Shown here piece by piece: positions 5,709 through 34,638 of a stretch of 61,071 nucleotides of DNA. This DNA comes from a virus. Its lineage: Duplodnaviria; Heunggongvirae; Uroviricota; Caudoviricetes. The position numbers and the translations under genes are program-made. The notes beneath the pieces are model-generated. The model was not told the DNA's origin, searched no databases, and saw only the letters and a list, made by a program, of their open reading frames with translations. The stretch covers positions 1 to 61,071 of IMG/VR virus record IMGVR_UViG_2778261463_000006; one strand, written 5' to 3'. Position 1 is the stretch's first letter; the number at the start of each line of letters is the position of its first letter.

Positions 5709-6206
5709 GGCTCTGCATTACCGGTTGGTGTGCCTGTTCCGTGGCCTTCAGCCACTCCGCCAACAGGCTGGCTGAAATGCAACGGAGCAGCTTTTTCTGC
5801 TGAAGAATACCCGGAGCTGGCAAAGGCTTACCCGACAAATAAATTGCCTGATTTACGTGGTGAGTTTATTCGTGGCTGGGATGACGGACGTGGTATGGAT
5901 ACGGGGAGGGCAATATTATCCGCTCAGGGCGATGCCATACGTAATATCTATGGTGAGTTCAAGACTGTAAACACCGAAAATTATTCAATATGGGAATCAG
6001 TAGGCTCGTTTAAGGGGGCAGTAGTGCCTTTGAACCCCTCAACGAACAATAGTTATTTCTCCTTAATCAGAAGTATGGTGACAGAAAGAACAGATGGCGC
6101 TGTTTACCCAAAAGTGATTGGCCTTGATGCTTCAAGAATTGTTCCAACTGCAAACGAAAACCGTCCTCGTAACATTGCCTTTAATTATATCGTGAGGGCT
6201 GCCTGA
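5697..6206 (+). CDS. Alternative tail-fibre C-terminal segment Sv' (no own start; would fuse in frame to S constant part after inversion)
   Basis: Reading frame continues GLGE... across the crossover exactly as the S frame does at 7579; ORF-track start at 5655 is read-through of the cix site. Confidence 0.55.
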   Translation, partial: GLGEGSALPVGVPVPWPSATPPTGWLKCNGAAFSAEEYPELAKAYPTNKLPDLRGEFIRGWDDGRGMDTGRAILSAQGDAIRNIYGEFKTVNTENYSIWESVGSFKGAVVPLNPSTNNSYFSLIRSMVTERTDGAVYPKVIGLDASRIVPTANENRPRNIAFNYIVRAA

Positions 6207-29277: not shown

Positions 29278-30279
29278 TTAAGGCTTCGGCTTTTTATCGA
29301 GGCTCTTTCTAAGGATATGCCCAATCATCCTGTCGAGTTCTTCCTGTAACTCTTTTGAGAGTCGATTAAACTCATAAGAAAATGCACGGCCTTTCACGCG
29401 CTTCCTTGCAAAGCGATCCTTGTCCTCAAATTTCCATAATTCAGTAACTACGGACTTATCTTTAGAACCTTTATCCGTGAGTAGTGAGGCTTCCTTTGTT
29501 ATCAAGCGCAGGATTTTATTTTTAACTTCATCTTCGGCCATTTCTTCAATGGATAAGATGTCGTTTATTTCCGGGGATATGTTTTGAATAAGCTGATCAA
29601 ACTCTAAATTCTTGTTCCCCATTTCGTCGCCAACAGCACAAAGCGTTTTGTAGTCCGAAAAGGTTAATTCCGACTGCACAGGGAAAAGGGCGACTAATTC
29701 TTCCGGAGCACTCGCTGCCTGGAGAGCACGCGTGACCTTCGCCTGAGACAGCCCTTCTTTGGCTGCAATATCCTTTTGACTCATCCCATCATTTTTCATT
29801 CGCATCAAACGCAGACCTATTTCTCGAATGCTGTGCTGCAATGCTGTCTGAACGTCTTTCGCTAAATTTTGCGCTTCCTGAACGCTGATCTCCTGGTCCG
29901 TGACTAAAACCCGCAACCCTACGTTCTCTAAGATGGCAGAAGCTCGACGCCGGGAACCATCCAAAATTTCAATTTTCCCTGTAGCCCGTCTGACACCTAT
30001 TGCAGGGTAAAATTGCTGATGCTTAATAGTGCTTAGGATACTTTTTAATGATTTTGGCGTAAGAGATGCCTGGTCACGCCCGTTGTTATGCTGATCAACA
30101 AAGGTATCGCTTTCTACCTGGTTCGGAGGTATTACCTCTTCAATAAATGTGGCCTGGCGACCAGTTGATAACTTGAATACCTGCTCGACTCGATCGCCAG
30201 AGGCTGAAGAACTATCAAATCCGCTTAATATTGAAGGATTAAGGGTTCGCCCAATTGTTGGTCTGTTTTTCTTTGACAT
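29278..30279 (-). CDS. parB: Partition protein ParB
   Basis: 333 aa, ParB/SopB-like, immediately downstream of parA and upstream of parS. Confidence 0.9.
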   Translation of the reverse strand: MSKKNRPTIGRTLNPSILSGFDSSSASGDRVEQVFKLSTGRQATFIEEVIPPNQVESDTFVDQHNNGRDQASLTPKSLKSILSTIKHQQFYPAIGVRRATGKIEILDGSRRRASAILENVGLRVLVTDQEISVQEAQNLAKDVQTALQHSIREIGLRLMRMKNDGMSQKDIAAKEGLSQAKVTRALQAASAPEELVALFPVQSELTFSDYKTLCAVGDEMGNKNLEFDQLIQNISPEINDILSIEEMAEDEVKNKILRLITKEASLLTDKGSKDKSVVTELWKFEDKDRFARKRVKGRAFSYEFNRLSKELQEELDRMIGHILRKSLDKKPKP

Positions 30280-30295: not shown

Positions 30296-31492
30296 TCAGT
30301 TAGATCTGATAAATTCAATACGGTCAAAAACTGCTTTAGCAAAATCTTCCGCGGCAATTCGCGCGTTCTTCAATGCATCAGCACTACCAACATACGTTGC
30401 CGGGTTAGCTGAAATAACAGTGTCAAAAGACTCGCCGCAACGTTCAAAACCGTCAAGGCGAGGGAGGACGACATCGAGCATATCCCCACCGAACACTTCT
30501 TTAGCCAGGCTATGGCAATACTTATGATCTGCCTTGTTACTCAACTTGGACATAAAACCAATGTTAGTCGCAAGCTGGCACTCGCAGCCTTCATCCGAAA
30601 TGAGTTTCACCAACTCAGGAAGGCGGGCAACGTATTTAAGCGATGAGTGGAAATCGACAGTTGCTGGCGGCAGAGGTGTAAACAGTATATTGGCCGAGGC
30701 CAAAGCATTTTTCAGGAAGGCGTCAAGGTGAGGACCACTATCAACGAGGATAAAGTCATAATCGCTCTTCAGCTTATCAATCACATTCTCTTTCAGGACA
30801 GCATGGATGTTCTGACCCGGTAGATGCTCATTGCACAGCTCTCTCCAATCGGATGCAATAAAGGCATCGTCAATCGACGCAGGCATAACGTCAACCCCAG
30901 GTACAACAGAAGGAACAATAAACTCCTCTAACAGCTCTTCACGGCTTACATTCTGCAACATAGCCTGTGCAGATGTTGCGTTTACGATACCAATAGAGTG
31001 TTTATGGCTTAAAAACATCGTTGCTGAAGATTGCGGATCAAGGTCAATAACCAGAATCCTTAAATCTTCCATCAGAAGATGAGGGTGGGCACGCATTGCA
31101 TGCGCCAGAGAAACCGTCGATACAGTTTTTGACACACCGCCTTTAAGATTGGAGATGAAAATCACATACGCTTCGCTGTAGCGATCCCGGTATTTTGGCA
31201 CTCCGCGATGTTCATATATGTCAATGATGTTCTGAATTGACATCGCATATTTCATTGAAGAGCCAGCAGGGCGTTTATCGAAAACATAACCCTTTTCTTC
31301 CATTTCACTTACGGCATAGTCAACGTTCGCACGAGTCAGTAGAGGCAATTTTGCCAGTGCCGCTTTCGCATAGACCTGGTAAAACTCGTTCGCGTGTAGC
31401 TCATCCTTTTGCAACTGTACTTGTTCAGTCAGAACATTGAGCATTCTATTTGCTCTTTGAGCAACCTTGTGAAGCTGGCTGGAATCACTCAT
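30296..31492 (-). CDS. parA: Partition ATPase ParA (Type Ia, with N-terminal DNA-binding extension)
   Basis: 398 aa; deviant Walker A KGGVSKT; SopA/ParA-like. Confidence 0.9.
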   Translation of the reverse strand: MSDSSQLHKVAQRANRMLNVLTEQVQLQKDELHANEFYQVYAKAALAKLPLLTRANVDYAVSEMEEKGYVFDKRPAGSSMKYAMSIQNIIDIYEHRGVPKYRDRYSEAYVIFISNLKGGVSKTVSTVSLAHAMRAHPHLLMEDLRILVIDLDPQSSATMFLSHKHSIGIVNATSAQAMLQNVSREELLEEFIVPSVVPGVDVMPASIDDAFIASDWRELCNEHLPGQNIHAVLKENVIDKLKSDYDFILVDSGPHLDAFLKNALASANILFTPLPPATVDFHSSLKYVARLPELVKLISDEGCECQLATNIGFMSKLSNKADHKYCHSLAKEVFGGDMLDVVLPRLDGFERCGESFDTVISANPATYVGSADALKNARIAAEDFAKAVFDRIEFIRSN

Positions 31493-31630
31493 CGAAAGTC
31501 ATCCTTTATGCTGTATTTTTGAGTTTAATTAAAAATGCTGCATAAAATAATAATGTATGCGTAGATGCTTGTACATAGCATTCTCTGCATGTTTGGTTCA
31601 TTTTGCACGATTGAGAGTTACAAGGAGGGC

Positions 31631-31653
31631 ACAAAAAAGCCCCGTTCAGGGGC
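31631..31653 (-). terminator. Rho-independent terminator after the T5orf172-like gene (minus strand)
   Basis: gcccc-gttca-ggggc hairpin with A-run on plus strand (T-run on minus). Confidence 0.55.
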
Positions 31654-31660
31654 ATCAGTG

Positions 31661-32470
31661 TTATTTGCTAAGAGCAGCGAATAATCGTTCGAAATCGATA
31701 GTATCTATAGCACGCGTAAGCGCCGGAAGTTCAGCCTCAAAGTACCCGTGTCGATCGTAAAAGAAGGGACCGAAGAGCGAGGCATGTTGGATTCTACTTC
31801 GCCCCAGCCCGGACACACAGTTAAGCCCATTACCGGCTAAAAGGCTAAAAAACTTCTCTGGATTATCGTGGTAAAGCTGGGAATCAATGGTGGCGGTTAA
31901 CTCTTCCATAGGGAAGCACACCCGCCCTGTATCCCAGGGATATTTAGTCCGAAGCATAAACATTGCTTTCAGCAATTCACATTGAGCGCGGATCGCGTCC
32001 GGTTCATAGCCAGATATGGAGACATAAGCCACGTCCCTCATTCCTGCGTCATCTTTGAAAGTCACGATAGAAGTAACATCCAGCTCTTTTTCGAAAGAGC
32101 AAGCAGCATCTACTGGACGCTGAAGTAAATCATTCGACTTAATGCGCTCGAGAATCCCTCCCCACATATCATTTAGATATTCGATATGAGCCAAAACCTT
32201 ATCAAGACACTCTCGTGTAAACCATTCAGTATGCCCGCCACCGACGCTTTTCTCCCACGGCGCATTCCAGGGGAAAAAGGTTGCGTGTAAAGCCCGCTCA
32301 AGATTAACCATTGCCAAACGCGTACCACGATAGACCCGTGAAAGCGCAAAATCGGGACTCACTTGTAGCCCTTTAAACCGTGCCAATGGACCACATGAAA
32401 TGCCGATTTTAAAAGTATCTCCGTTCTCTGGCACCAGAACGTAGAGGTAGTGTTGTTTCTCTTCTTGCAT
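31661..32470 (-). CDS. T5orf172 / GIY-YIG-like domain protein (269 aa), accessory insertion between parA and incA
   Basis: N-terminus YLYVLVPENGDTFKIGIS...RFKGL...GGGHTEWF fits T5orf172-type motif; C-terminal domain unassigned. Confidence 0.6.
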   Translation of the reverse strand: MQEEKQHYLYVLVPENGDTFKIGISCGPLARFKGLQVSPDFALSRVYRGTRLAMVNLERALHATFFPWNAPWEKSVGGGHTEWFTRECLDKVLAHIEYLNDMWGGILERIKSNDLLQRPVDAACSFEKELDVTSIVTFKDDAGMRDVAYVSISGYEPDAIRAQCELLKAMFMLRTKYPWDTGRVCFPMEELTATIDSQLYHDNPEKFFSLLAGNGLNCVSGLGRSRIQHASLFGPFFYDRHGYFEAELPALTRAIDTIDFERLFAALSK

Positions 32471-32504
32471 ATCAATACCACTGCTTGATGAGAACCGCGC
32501 AAAT

Positions 32505-32761
32505 GTTGACTATGCGCGAAGGTTAATGTGAATAGTTGACTATGCGCGATGTGACTACAGTCAAAAGTTGACTGTAGTCGATTTAACTCCACCAAAGATC
32601 GACTATGTAAGATATTGTCGGGAGAAACGTTGACTATACGCGATGAAATGCCCCTAAAAGCCATCTCAATAGCGACTTGCAGAATATTGACGCCAGCAAA
32701 AATCCACCAGCGTCAACGAATGTCGCCTATAGTCAACTTCTCGCTATCGCATATAGTCAAT
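32505..32761. repeat. incA: incA iteron array (about 8-9 RepA-binding repeats in both orientations)
   Basis: Repeats of GTTGACTATGCGCGA and inverse TCGCCTATAGTCAAC / TCGCATATAGTCAAT immediately downstream of repA. Confidence 0.7.
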
Positions 32762-32762
32762 A

Positions 32763-33683
32763 TTATGGATTGCGCTTATGGATCTGGAAGCCGATTTTCC
32801 TGCCGTTTTTTATCTCTGAAAATTTAAGATATTCAATAGCTTCCAAATCTTTCATGGCTTTTCTGATAACGCTATTTTGCACGCTAACGGATGATTTGAG
32901 ATTAAGCCTCGCTCTAAGGCGCTCAATGCTGACAGGTGCCGGGTTGGCGGGTAGAGCCTCAAAGAATGTATACAGTACCTTGGCCGTCTCTTTGCGCCCT
33001 AGTTTATCCAGCATCTTCAGCTTCAGGATTCGCTTATAGTCAACATAGTAAAGTTCAGATAGCTGTTTCTGCGGCTGGATCTCGATAACATCAAGCTCGG
33101 TATTCAGGCTGCTATATGCCAACAAGTTGACGTTAATGTTATTGAGATGACCTTTTGCCGCCGGGAAGCGGAATTTGACAACTGTCTGCTGAATGCGTGT
33201 CAGAGAGTCATCAATACTTTTACGGAACGCCTTTGAAAGGCGCTTACGTGGATAGCCGCATCGATCGGCAAACTCGGAGAATGGCAGGGTGATTATGCCG
33301 TCATCATCAGGTGCGTAGTCAAACAACGCGGAAGTTATGCCCACCCACACCTTAAAATCAGTATCCATATCCAGGCGTGGACCATGAATTTCAATTCCCT
33401 CATAGCCTTCCTGCTCAACAATTTTGAGGCTTGATAGTTCTTCAGTTGCGTTCGTTGTGTTTGTTGTAACTGACGATCCGCGACGTAGCGCCACATTGGT
33501 AGATTTTAAGGTTGGCACAAACACACCTAAGCGCAACAAAGCGATGGGTTGTATAGTGCTGTTGTTATTGGGCTTCAGGCTGTGGATTTCTCCTGTATTT
33601 CCTGCAACTTCTTCAACGCTAAGGAAGCCTTTACTTTCTTCCGGCATCACGGTTTCTCCATGTGTGGCGCGGCCTGACGTCAA
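32763..33683 (-). CDS. repA: Plasmid replication initiator RepA (start probably at 33647)
   Basis: Rep protein flanked by iterons on both sides; RepFIB/P1 RepA-like. Confidence 0.85.
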   Translation of the reverse strand: MTSGRATHGETVMPEESKGFLSVEEVAGNTGEIHSLKPNNNSTIQPIALLRLGVFVPTLKSTNVALRRGSSVTTNTTNATEELSSLKIVEQEGYEGIEIHGPRLDMDTDFKVWVGITSALFDYAPDDDGIITLPFSEFADRCGYPRKRLSKAFRKSIDDSLTRIQQTVVKFRFPAAKGHLNNINVNLLAYSSLNTELDVIEIQPQKQLSELYYVDYKRILKLKMLDKLGRKETAKVLYTFFEALPANPAPVSIERLRARLNLKSSVSVQNSVIRKAMKDLEAIEYLKFSEIKNGRKIGFQIHKRNP

Positions 33684-33724
33684 TTTGGATGGCTGTTATC
33701 AACAGCTGTGAATATTCAGACTCT

Positions 33725-33935
33725 AAAATCGCGTACAGTCAATGTTTCTGTCGCGTATAGTCAACAATAAATCGCGTGCAGTCAACAATAAATCGTGCAC
33801 AGTCAACATAAAATCGCGTATAGTCAATGTTGATCCCATTTCAGGCCAGTAATGACGCGGCTTACAGCGATCCGGGATCTTCTTTGGATCTTCCTAGGTT
33901 CTCTTTAGGATCTGTTTATTGGATCTATGCTGTGG
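33725..33935. other. oriR: incC iterons (5), GATC-rich AT-rich region and DnaA box
   Basis: Five ~21-bp spaced iterons TCGCGTATAGTCAA-like at 33726-33832; six GATC sites 33836-33915; DnaA box TGTGGATAA at 33921-33929. Confidence 0.7.
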
Positions 33936-33982
33936 ATAAGTTGAATAAACCGGCCAACAAAGCCGGTTGGAAGGAAGTCATA

Positions 33983-34375
33983 TTATTCTACGCTTTCGAT
34001 AAGAAGACCATGTTCATAACATTTAAGCTCATCGCCTTCATACAGGAATTGGTATCCAACACCACCATCTTCATGGACATTAGGGAATAACTCATAACTC
34101 ACTGAAGAGCAAATCACACCAATGCAGCGATCAACTCCTTCTCGTTCTTCAGTGCTGAAAAAATCCTCTTCGGTAAGAACATGAGTACATTGCTCATCAG
34201 CATAGGTCGGAAATACATGCTCAATGCAATCCGGGTGTTTTAAACCAAGCTGATCGGCAAGCTCGAAAGCACGACGGTATTGTTCAGATCCTGGCTTGCC
34301 AACAGTGATTTGCTCAATTTTGTAGATTGAAGTCGCTTTGTTGATAGTTTGCTTTACTGTTACTTTATCAGACAT
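33983..34375 (-). CDS. UpfA-like hypothetical protein (130 aa)
   Basis: ORF upstream of oriR; P1 synteny. Confidence 0.5.
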   Translation of the reverse strand: MSDKVTVKQTINKATSIYKIEQITVGKPGSEQYRRAFELADQLGLKHPDCIEHVFPTYADEQCTHVLTEEDFFSTEEREGVDRCIGVICSSVSYELFPNVHEDGGVGYQFLYEGDELKCYEHGLLIESVE

Positions 34376-34386
34376 AAAAATCCCTT

Positions 34387-34638
34387 TTAGTTACCGCTAA
34401 TAGCTCGGTTGTAATCATTAACGTTGCGATTCTTCCTGTTAATCCCCATCAGCATCGTTTCTGTATCGAGGATATACGCTGGCAGATCATCAAAATATTC
34501 ACTGCTAAACTCTGGCATCCTGCACATAAATGCACTTTTGGGGGCAGGGTGGTTAACCTTTGTCGGCGTCGGCGTTAAATTCGCTGATCGACTCCCGGAG
34601 CAACCGCTGAGTGTCAGCAGGAATACGCTGGCGAACAT
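34387..34638 (-). CDS. mlp: Lipoprotein Mlp-like; Rz1-like o-spanin candidate (start at internal Met)
   Basis: Lipobox LTLSGC, Pro-rich mature N-terminus LTPTPTKVNHPAPKS; start embedded out of frame in the 3' end of ppfA. Confidence 0.5.
   Translation of the reverse strand: MFASVFLLTLSGCSGSRSANLTPTPTKVNHPAPKSAFMCRMPEFSSEYFDDLPAYILDTETMLMGINRKNRNVNDYNRAISGN

What the first reader, a model, noticed from the sequence alone, without database searches (positions are those of the whole stretch)
31661..32470. T5orf172/GIY-YIG-like gene inserted between parA and the incA iterons
A 269-aa ORF with its own terminator sits between the partition operon and incA, where I recall P1 having only non-coding DNA. 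Its N-terminus (YLYVLVPENGDTFKIGIS...GGGHTEWF) fits the T5orf172 GIY-YIG-like fold found in nucleases and in phage/plasmid conflict proteins; the C-terminal ~170 aa has no motif I recognise. Its promoter region overlaps the first incA iteron, so it may be RepA-regulated. Candidate accessory defence, anti-defence or exclusion factor.
Basis: partly seen in the sequence, partly recalled or inferred. Interest (0 to 1): 0.6.

Follow-up and report, generated by a model that had tools for sequence, protein, structure and literature searches.

The report
Nuclease gene riding P1-like plasmid replicon
A real but dispensable T5orf172 (GIY-YIG-type) nuclease gene sits at the edge of the swappable replication cassette of about half of P1-like phage-plasmids, and looks most like a selfish homing-endonuclease-type passenger whose function nobody has tested.

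Summary

It is not an insertion into P1's incA-parA spacer. The window is an SJ46/RCS47/JL22-type P1-like phage-plasmid in which the whole specificity cassette (origin iterons, repA, control iterons, this gene, terminator; 31595-33844) replaces P1's IncY cassette with the "p0111" type.

Full-length homologues are found only in P1-like phage-plasmids, in four cassette lineages with three iteron/Rep specificities, one of them IncY-like. Each starts 16-30 bp after the last control iteron and ends 63-84 bp from the cassette boundary. P1 itself lacks the gene.

It is dispensable and decaying. There are at least five independent inactivating mutations among about 70 copies, and pN/pS is 0.33 against 0.02-0.03 for parA and repA.

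The C-terminal domain has no sequence family. Its best non-nuclease structural matches are Rep-initiator WH1 domains, but they are not significant.

Best reading: a homing-endonuclease-like, possibly RepA-gated, site-specific nuclease. Main rival: an Odn-like weapon against competing replicons. RefSeq already annotates it as "GIY-YIG nuclease family protein"; its function is untested.

The parts
31661..32470 (-). ORF269, a two-domain T5orf172 nuclease-like gene. N-terminal nuclease domain is aa 1-105 (32156-32470). C-terminal domain of unknown family is aa ~106-269 (31661-32155).
31631..31653 (-). Intrinsic terminator directly after ORF269: hairpin GCCCCTGAACGGGGC followed by a T-run.
   Evidence: A similar hairpin plus T-run and following bases occur after the homologue in L078.
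31595..33844 (-). Replicon specificity cassette that replaces P1's incC-repA-incA. ORF269 is its last element on the parA side.
   Evidence: blastn breakpoints against P1. The same kind of cassette swap is seen between L003 and L076, whose flanks are 94-98% identical.
32500..32645 (.). Five control iterons (GTTGACTATGCGCGA type), ~31 bp apart, inverted relative to the origin iterons. The last one ends 30 bp before the ORF269 ATG.
32721..32761 (.). Two iterons in origin orientation immediately after the repA stop codon.
32763..33683 (-). repA (p0111 type, Rep_3 WH1+WH2). The likely true start is the ATG at 33647 (294 aa).
   Evidence: Pfam Rep3_C / Rep3_N. 42% identity to P1 RepA, 84% to L003 RepA, ~45% to classical RepFIB RepA. 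The start is inferred from the L003 homologue.
33728..33830 (.). Five origin iterons at 21-bp spacing.
33845..33982 (.). Left part of oriR shared with P1 (~92% identity). It holds a DnaA box (TTATCCACA) and a GATC cluster, and lies outside the swapped cassette.
31547..31575 (-). Ppar promoter (P1-identical), ~20 bp inside the parA-side cassette boundary.

Best explanation
ORF269 is a free-standing, modular, site-specific DNA endonuclease of the T5orf172 branch of the GIY-YIG superfamily. It has an N-terminal catalytic domain and a fast-evolving C-terminal domain that is inferred to recognise the target. It behaves as an optional selfish passenger of the homing-endonuclease type at the parA-side edge of the exchangeable replicon cassette of P1-like phage-plasmids. 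What is shown: the domain identity, the fold and the retained catalytic-type residues; the restriction of the full-length family to P1-like replicon cassettes; its position at the cassette boundary; its dispensability and frequent decay. What is inferred: that it cuts a specific site in rival P1-like genomes lacking it, or carrying another cassette, so that repair from the nuclease-bearing genome co-converts the adjacent replicon cassette or at least keeps the gene linked to it. Also inferred: that its expression passes through the RepA-bound control iterons. It would then be made mainly when RepA is scarce, for example just after entry into a cell.
Against: No cleavage site, target or homing event is known. 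Within the p0111 lineage the gene is essentially fixed, so there is no clean empty-site allele to compare. Any gene at the end of a cassette is at the boundary by construction. Cassette swaps can be explained by ordinary homologous recombination in the conserved flanks plus selection for compatibility. The gene has stayed linked to Rep/iteron cassettes across deep divergence (RepA 42-48% identity), which is long for a purely parasitic gene. pN/pS of 0.33 still indicates some purifying selection. The C-terminal domain is not a recognised DNA-binding family.
Confidence: 0.42

Rival explanations
1. Competitor-directed exclusion nuclease, Odn-like. The C-terminal domain is a Rep-WH1-like module that binds iteron-type origins, or RepA itself, of rival plasmids or phage-plasmids. 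The T5orf172 domain cuts them. This gives the carrier replicon an advantage on entry or protects the host from incoming elements. It would be a defence or exclusion function rather than homing.
Against: None of the WH1 matches is statistically significant. No sequence or profile similarity to any of the five RepAs was found (hhalign probability 0.2%). There is no PADLOC match. Frequent pseudogenisation, including in successful AMR-carrying elements such as SJ46, argues against strong benefit. Self-immunity of the carrier's own iterons is unexplained.
Confidence: 0.25
2. Domesticated, non-cutting DNA-binding accessory of the replicon, CapR-like. It would modulate copy control (handcuffing at the control iterons) or par/rep transcription.
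For: T5orf172 proteins can be domesticated as repressors, as with PLE CapR (PMC10448857). The gene abuts the control iterons and Ppar in every lineage and co-diverges roughly with the cassette.
Against: All catalytic-type residues are invariant, which is not expected for a pure binder. P1 and 374 PLSDB plasmids with P1-type (IncY) RepA have no detectable homologue. Truncated or interrupted copies persist in maintained plasmids. pN/pS is ten-fold higher than for repA and parA.
Confidence: 0.12
3. A relic with no present function, a former homing endonuclease or cargo gene drifting to loss.
For: There are multiple independent nonsense, frameshift and IS events. Missense changes occur at conserved positions (P14L, T81A, E73G). 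pN/pS in the N-domain is not lower than in the C-domain.
Against: About 80% of copies are intact and pN/pS is 0.33, below 1. The full-length ORF has been kept open in four lineages down to 25-27% identity with all motif residues invariant.
Confidence: 0.15

Closest known systems
T5orf172-family putative homing endonucleases of vibriophage ICP1 and other phages (Barth, Dunham & Seed 2023, PMC10448857)
   Same: Same Pfam nuclease domain and fold. Free-standing gene next to essential genes. Variable presence, frameshifts and premature stops. Position at a boundary of genetic exchange.
   Different: The ICP1-type genes carry N-terminal Zn-finger (CapR/DUF723/DUF4397) DNA-binding repeats with the nuclease at the C-terminus. 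ORF269 has the nuclease at the N-terminus, no CxxC motifs and an unrelated C-terminal domain. It lives in a plasmid replicon cassette of a temperate phage-plasmid, not in a lytic phage.
ICP1 Odn (gp88), the origin-directed nuclease (Barth et al. 2021, PMC8263062)
   Same: A T5orf172 nuclease with a separate targeting domain. ORF269 E58 aligns with the catalytic Glu (E180). Both are associated with iteron replicons. The ORF269 C-domain's best structural matches are Rep WH domains.
   Different: Odn's DNA-binding domain is 42% identical to PLE RepA_N at sequence level. The ORF269 C-domain has no detectable sequence similarity to any RepA. The domain order is reversed. Odn is encoded by the attacker of the replicon, whereas ORF269 is encoded inside a replicon.
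Free-standing GIY-YIG homing endonucleases of T-even phages (I-TevI, SegA-G)
   Same: An N-terminal ~100-aa GIY-YIG-type catalytic domain followed by a C-terminal targeting domain, ~220-270 aa in total. Intergenic, optional, and linked to co-conversion of flanking markers. This comparison rests on established knowledge.
   Different: ORF269 belongs to the T5orf172 subfamily (K-I-G instead of Y-I-G; [T]EWF motif). It has no detectable sequence similarity to the I-TevI/Seg DNA-binding modules. Homing has not been shown.
P1 IncY and RepFIB iteron replicons (ori iterons - repA - control iterons)
   Same: The surrounding cassette has the same layout: five 21-bp-spaced origin iterons, a Rep_3 initiator, then direct and inverted control iterons. 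The DnaA-box/GATC half of oriR is shared with P1.
   Different: Neither P1's replicon nor the RepFIB-type plasmids in PLSDB (at least 4,600 records with a RepA below 60% identical; no ORF269 homologue by tblastn) carry a gene after the control iterons.

Membership tests
Pfam T5orf172 (PF10544), GIY-YIG clan | Profile HMM score above the curated gathering threshold | tested here: met
   26.9 bits against a cut-off of 20, E=6.9e-6, residues 8-85. phrog_681 'endonuclease' E=7e-9.
Pfam T5orf172 (PF10544), GIY-YIG clan | Conserved motif residues: the Y-x-Y strand, K-I-G, Arg, E...LH, [T]EWF | tested here: met
   Y10, K21, G23, R31, E58 and E82 are invariant, and S44, L61, H62, G79, T81, W83 and F84 are >=90% conserved, in 58 sequences. 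E58 aligns with Odn E180.
Pfam T5orf172 (PF10544), GIY-YIG clan | GIY-YIG alpha/beta nuclease fold | tested here: met
Pfam T5orf172 (PF10544), GIY-YIG clan | Metal-dependent DNA cleavage | not testable with these tools
   Needs purified protein and E58A/E82A controls.
Free-standing homing endonuclease gene | Presence/absence polymorphism at one locus among otherwise syntenic relatives | tested here: met
   Absent in P1 and not detected by tblastn in any PLSDB plasmid outside the p0111 group, which includes 374 with P1-type RepA. Present in the IncY-like L076 cassette and in p0111-type cassettes.
Free-standing homing endonuclease gene | Decay signatures: frameshifts, premature stops, disruptions | tested here: met
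   Three distinct nonsense alleles, one frameshift and one IS200/IS605 insertion in ~70 loci. pN/pS 0.33 against 0.02-0.03 in neighbouring genes.
Free-standing homing endonuclease gene | A separate sequence-specific DNA-binding domain | tested here: inconclusive
   The C-domain folds confidently in part (pLDDT 85-93 for residues 155-215) with winged-helix-like topology and weak Rep-WH1 matches. There is no Pfam family and no significant structural hit.
Free-standing homing endonuclease gene | Cleavage of the gene-less allele and copying of the gene into it | not testable with these tools
   Needs crosses or co-residence experiments.
Odn-like origin-directed nuclease | Targeting domain homologous to a replication initiator's DNA-binding domain | tested here: inconclusive
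Odn-like origin-directed nuclease | Iteron-dependent cleavage of an origin | not testable with these tools
   Needs in vitro nuclease assays on iteron fragments.
Catalogued anti-phage defence systems (PADLOC-DB 2.0) | Match to any defence-protein model | tested here: not met
   0 families at E<=1. No NCBIfam model either.

The most novel reading that the evidence does not exclude
ORF269 and its three sister lineages are a replicon-borne, RepA-gated nuclease whose C-terminal domain is a diverged Rep WH1 module. The nuclease would be switched on when the control iterons are unoccupied, as on entry into a new cell. It would then be guided to iteron-type origins, or to RepA bound there, of rival P1-like or F-like replicons. 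That would make it a plasmid-encoded counterpart of phage Odn. It would either destroy competitors or drive homing of the whole replicon-specificity cassette, and so explain the IncY/p0111 cassette swaps.
Probability: 0.15. Interest if true: 0.8.

Novelty: new variant of a known kind. Interest (0 to 1): 0.45.

Why it matters
P1-like phage-plasmids are common carriers of ESBL, mcr and other resistance genes in E. coli and Salmonella. In PLSDB about half use the p0111 replicon (395 plasmids, against 374 with P1-type IncY RepA). Each p0111 cassette examined carries this uncharacterised nuclease gene. If the protein cuts rival replicons or drives cassette conversion, it would help explain several things: how replicon specificity cassettes move between phage-plasmid backbones, why the IncY and p0111 types coexist, and how incoming elements displace residents. 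It would also extend the T5orf172 homing / origin-directed nuclease idea from lytic vibriophages to plasmid replicons. If it is only a decaying selfish gene, it is still a clean natural example of the late stage of the homing cycle and a useful marker of cassette ancestry.

Tried and rejected
(1) 'Simple insertion into P1's incA-parA spacer' is rejected. P1 homology ends at 31594 and resumes at 33845, so the whole cassette is replaced.

(2) 'Part of RepFIB replicons in general' is rejected. At least 4,600 PLSDB plasmids carry RepA relatives below 60% identity, but ORF269 homologues occur only in the ~400 p0111-type records.

(3) A remnant of the gene in P1's 210-bp spacer: tblastn found nothing.

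(4) C-domain derived from the cognate or a rival RepA, as in Odn: no BLASTP or hhalign signal.

(5) A Pfam domain in the C-terminal halves of all four lineages: none.

(6) Sequence search of the PDB with the family profile gave only a marginal UPF0213 GIY-YIG hit.

(7) A known defence system: none in PADLOC.

(8) A structured RNA or antisense RNA in 31000-34500: no Rfam hit at E<=1.

(9) Compositional foreignness: GC is 0.474 against 0.478 for the window.

(10) An ORF269-specific sigma-70 promoter between or within the iterons: none by consensus scan. A terminator after the gene was not detected in L003 or L076, but one is present in L078.

(11) The first AF2 run with two sequences was unusable (pLDDT 53). 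The afdb50 fold library was unavailable.

(12) Scans of GTDB genomes, IMG/VR and JGI metagenomes for distant relatives returned only the ORF269 type. The distant lineages came from the exhaustive HMMER search and the contig look-ups.

Full report
WHAT IS THERE

The minus-strand ORF 31661..32470 (269 aa, ATG start) exists exactly as described. It is flanked by P1-type parA (30296..31492) and parB (29278..30279) on one side. On the other side are an iteron array and a Rep_3-family repA (32763..33683). A GC-rich hairpin plus T-run follows its stop codon (31653-31639). Pfam T5orf172 matches residues 8-85 above the gathering threshold (26.9 against 20 bits). MUG113 and Tox-URI2, other GIY-YIG-clan models, score below threshold. 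The protein is PHROG 2876 ('unknown function') end to end and matches an 'endonuclease' PHROG with its N-terminus. It has no PADLOC or NCBIfam model.

CONTEXT: A REPLACED REPLICON CASSETTE, NOT AN INSERTION

The 1.3 kb around the gene is 99-100% identical to Salmonella phage SJ46, Escherichia phages JL22, RCS47, phi456 and others. Identity to P1 itself covers only the first ~92 bases of the query (31500-31592), which is Ppar. blastn of the oriented regions shows P1 homology ending at window 31594 and resuming at 33845.

Everything between is different from P1: five 21-bp-spaced origin iterons (33728-33830), repA, two direct iterons (32721-32761), five inverted iterons ~31 bp apart (32500-32645), ORF269 and its terminator. 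The DnaA-box/GATC half of oriR (33845-33982) and upfA are shared with P1 at ~92%.

This RepA is 42% identical to P1 RepA and ~45% to classical RepFIB RepA. It is the 'p0111' replicon of PlasmidFinder. The swap is already in the literature. [quoted passage not shown] PMC6906374 lists '2 orfs inserted between repA and parA' in pSvP1. In PLSDB, 395 plasmids have this RepA at >=95% identity, 374 have P1-type RepA at >=95%, and 401 carry ORF269, all at >=90% identity. RefSeq calls it 'GIY-YIG nuclease family protein'. One phage record mislabels it 'terminase small subunit'.

DISTRIBUTION OF THE FAMILY

A word-indexed search of 5.8 billion protein clusters found one diverged homologue, P0004 at 44% identity. 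An exhaustive HMMER search of 1.84 billion representatives found two more full-length ones: P0009 (27%, Salmonella enterica) and P0011/P0154 (25%, faeces metagenome / Cronobacter sakazakii). About 150 further proteins match only the N-terminal ~100 residues.

All three diverged full-length homologues lie on contigs with P1-like gene order (two of ~93-96 kb, one of 14 kb). They occupy the same slot: upfC-upfB-ppfA-(upfA)-ori iterons-repA-control iterons-T5orf172-parA-parB-gene 23.

The cassettes differ:
- L003 has a p0111-like RepA (84% to the window's).
- L076 has a P1-type IncY RepA (83% to P1) with P1-type TGTGCTGGAGGG iterons.
- L078 has a third RepA (43-48% to the others) with GGCTACTG-type iterons.

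L003 and L076 share flanks at 94-98% nucleotide identity but carry different cassettes. Cassette exchange has therefore happened in a second backbone as well, and there too the T5orf172 gene lies inside the exchanged block, 63-84 bp from its parA-side end. T5orf172 identities (44% window/L003; 40% L076/L078; 27-29% across) are far lower than RepA or ParA identities and only partly track the RepA tree.

In all four lineages the start codon lies 16-30 bp after the last inverted control iteron. No sigma-70 consensus promoter was found there, and no terminator is predicted between repA and ORF269 in the window. Transcription must therefore start inside the RepA-binding array or read through it.

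THE PROTEIN

Across 58 aligned sequences Y10, K21, G23, R31, E58 and E82 are invariant, and S44, L61, H62, G79, T81, W83 and F84 are nearly so. Aligned to ICP1 ORF88 (Odn), ORF269 E58 matches Odn E180, whose E180A mutant is catalytically dead (PMC8263062).

The C-terminal ~165 aa has no Pfam match in any of the four lineages and no sequence or profile similarity to the five RepAs. Its predicted topology contains a winged-helix-like unit: H157-175, E183-187, H188-194, H198-202, H204-212, E215-220, E227-231.

POPULATION BEHAVIOUR

There are 73 blast matches in ~70 loci from IMG/VR, GTDB and metagenomes. Of these, 58 copies are intact and 8 have premature stops from three different mutations: TCG>TAG at codon 112 (5 loci), CAA>TAA at 228 (2 loci, including SJ46, whose annotated CDS is 227 aa) and TGG>TAG at 68 (1 locus). 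One copy has a frameshift. One is interrupted by an IS200/IS605 element (TnpA+TnpB) with loss of codons ~99-174. The rest are cut by contig ends. The vB_EcoM-673R5 record also splits the gene.

Counting unique segregating sites, pN/pS is 0.33 for ORF269 against 0.03 for repA and 0.02 for parA in the same loci. It is no lower in the nuclease domain, and some changes hit conserved positions (P14L, E73G, T81A). The gene is therefore not needed for replication or maintenance. It is under weak constraint and is lost repeatedly. Its base composition is ordinary.

INTERPRETATION

Four features match published descriptions: a T5orf172 nuclease domain with intact catalytic residues, a second fast-evolving domain, optional presence with recurrent decay, and a position next to essential genes at a boundary of genetic exchange. 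This is the set of signatures used to call T5orf172 homing endonucleases in ICP1-like phages (PMC10448857). The architecture matches I-TevI/Seg-type GIY-YIG homing enzymes.

I therefore rank 'homing-endonuclease-like selfish site-specific nuclease riding the replicon cassette' first, at about 0.42.

The main rival, at about 0.25, is an Odn-like nuclease aimed at competitors' origins. It is favoured by the tight association with iterons and by the weak WH1-like fold signal. It is weakened by the lack of any sequence link to Rep proteins and by frequent pseudogenisation.

A domesticated regulatory role (about 0.12) is unlikely because the catalytic residues are invariant and because P1-type IncY replicons and truncated alleles do without the protein. 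A functionless relic (about 0.15) is hard to square with open reading frames kept down to 25% identity.

The first two models share the mechanism, sequence-directed cleavage by the T5orf172 domain. They differ in the target and in who benefits. Only experiments can separate them.

NOVELTY

The gene and the cassette swap are already annotated or noted, but the function is untested. No paper in the searchable library links GIY-YIG or T5orf172 to P1-like elements.

What this analysis adds:
- The full-length family is confined to P1-like replicon cassettes of three specificities, including an IncY-like one.
- Its start always abuts the last control iteron.
- It sits at the cassette boundary in two backbones.
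- It is decaying under relaxed selection.
- Its domain order and C-terminal domain differ from described T5orf172 homing endonucleases and from Odn.

That makes it a new variant of a known kind, of moderate interest.

Noticed in passing
window 33845-33982 versus 33728-33844: The cassette breakpoint on the origin side falls exactly between the DnaA-box/GATC half of oriR (TTATCCACA plus five GATC, shared with P1 at ~92%) and the first origin iteron. Only the Rep-specific half of the origin is exchanged.
   Followed up: partly
L003 and L076 (whole loci): Two P1-like contigs share flanks at 94-98% nucleotide identity (ParA 100%, ParB 98% at protein level). One carries a p0111-like and the other an IncY-like replicon cassette, each with its own T5orf172 homologue. 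This is a second, independent backbone showing cassette exchange.
   Followed up: yes
window 33028-33044 (inside repA); L003 7610-7630: An iteron-like copy (TTCGCTTATAGTCAAC) lies inside the repA coding sequence. It is conserved at the equivalent place in the 84%-identical L003 repA. Its function is unknown; it could be an internal RepA-binding site.
   Followed up: no
window 33647-33683: The mechanical ORF call starts repA at a TTG (306 aa). The homologue in L003 and an in-frame ATG at 33647 (MPEESKGF...) suggest a 294-aa protein.
   Followed up: partly
L044 6295-8057 (IMG/VR UViG_2645727563_000002): An IS200/IS605-family element (TnpA-like 144 aa plus TnpB-like 392 aa) has inserted into ORF269 and removed about codons 99-174.
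   Followed up: partly
L084 (SJ46, KU760857.1 4324-5007) and L021, L061: The type phage-plasmid SJ46 carries a CAA>TAA nonsense codon at position 228 of this gene, so its annotated CDS is 227 aa. The last 42 residues are therefore dispensable for plasmid maintenance.
   Followed up: yes
window 31631-31653 and L078 ~6000-6030: The terminator hairpin, T-run and following bases after the gene are similar between the window and the L078 lineage (…GCCCC TGAAC GGGGC TTTTTTGTGCCCTCC… against …GCCC TTTAATTA GGGC TTTTTTATGCCTTCC…). The proteins are only ~29% identical. The L003 and L076 lineages show no such terminator.
   Followed up: partly
phage records OR339795.1 (phi456) and ON470615.2 (vB_EcoM-673R5): phi456 annotates this gene as 'terminase small subunit', a likely misannotation. 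In vB_EcoM-673R5 both this gene and parB are split into two CDSs, which suggests frameshifts or sequencing errors in that record.
   Followed up: no
window 31506-31655 (minus strand): A 49-aa Cys-rich ORF spans the terminator and Ppar region between ORF269 and parA. It overlaps the P1-identical par promoter/operator and is probably spurious.
   Followed up: no
L080 6001-6879; L081 1024-1662: The closest N-domain-only relatives sit in other mobile elements. One is next to relaxase/MobC/TrbM and umuDC-like genes on a 50-kb contig. Another is in a phage region with two HNH_3 endonuclease genes.
   Followed up: partly
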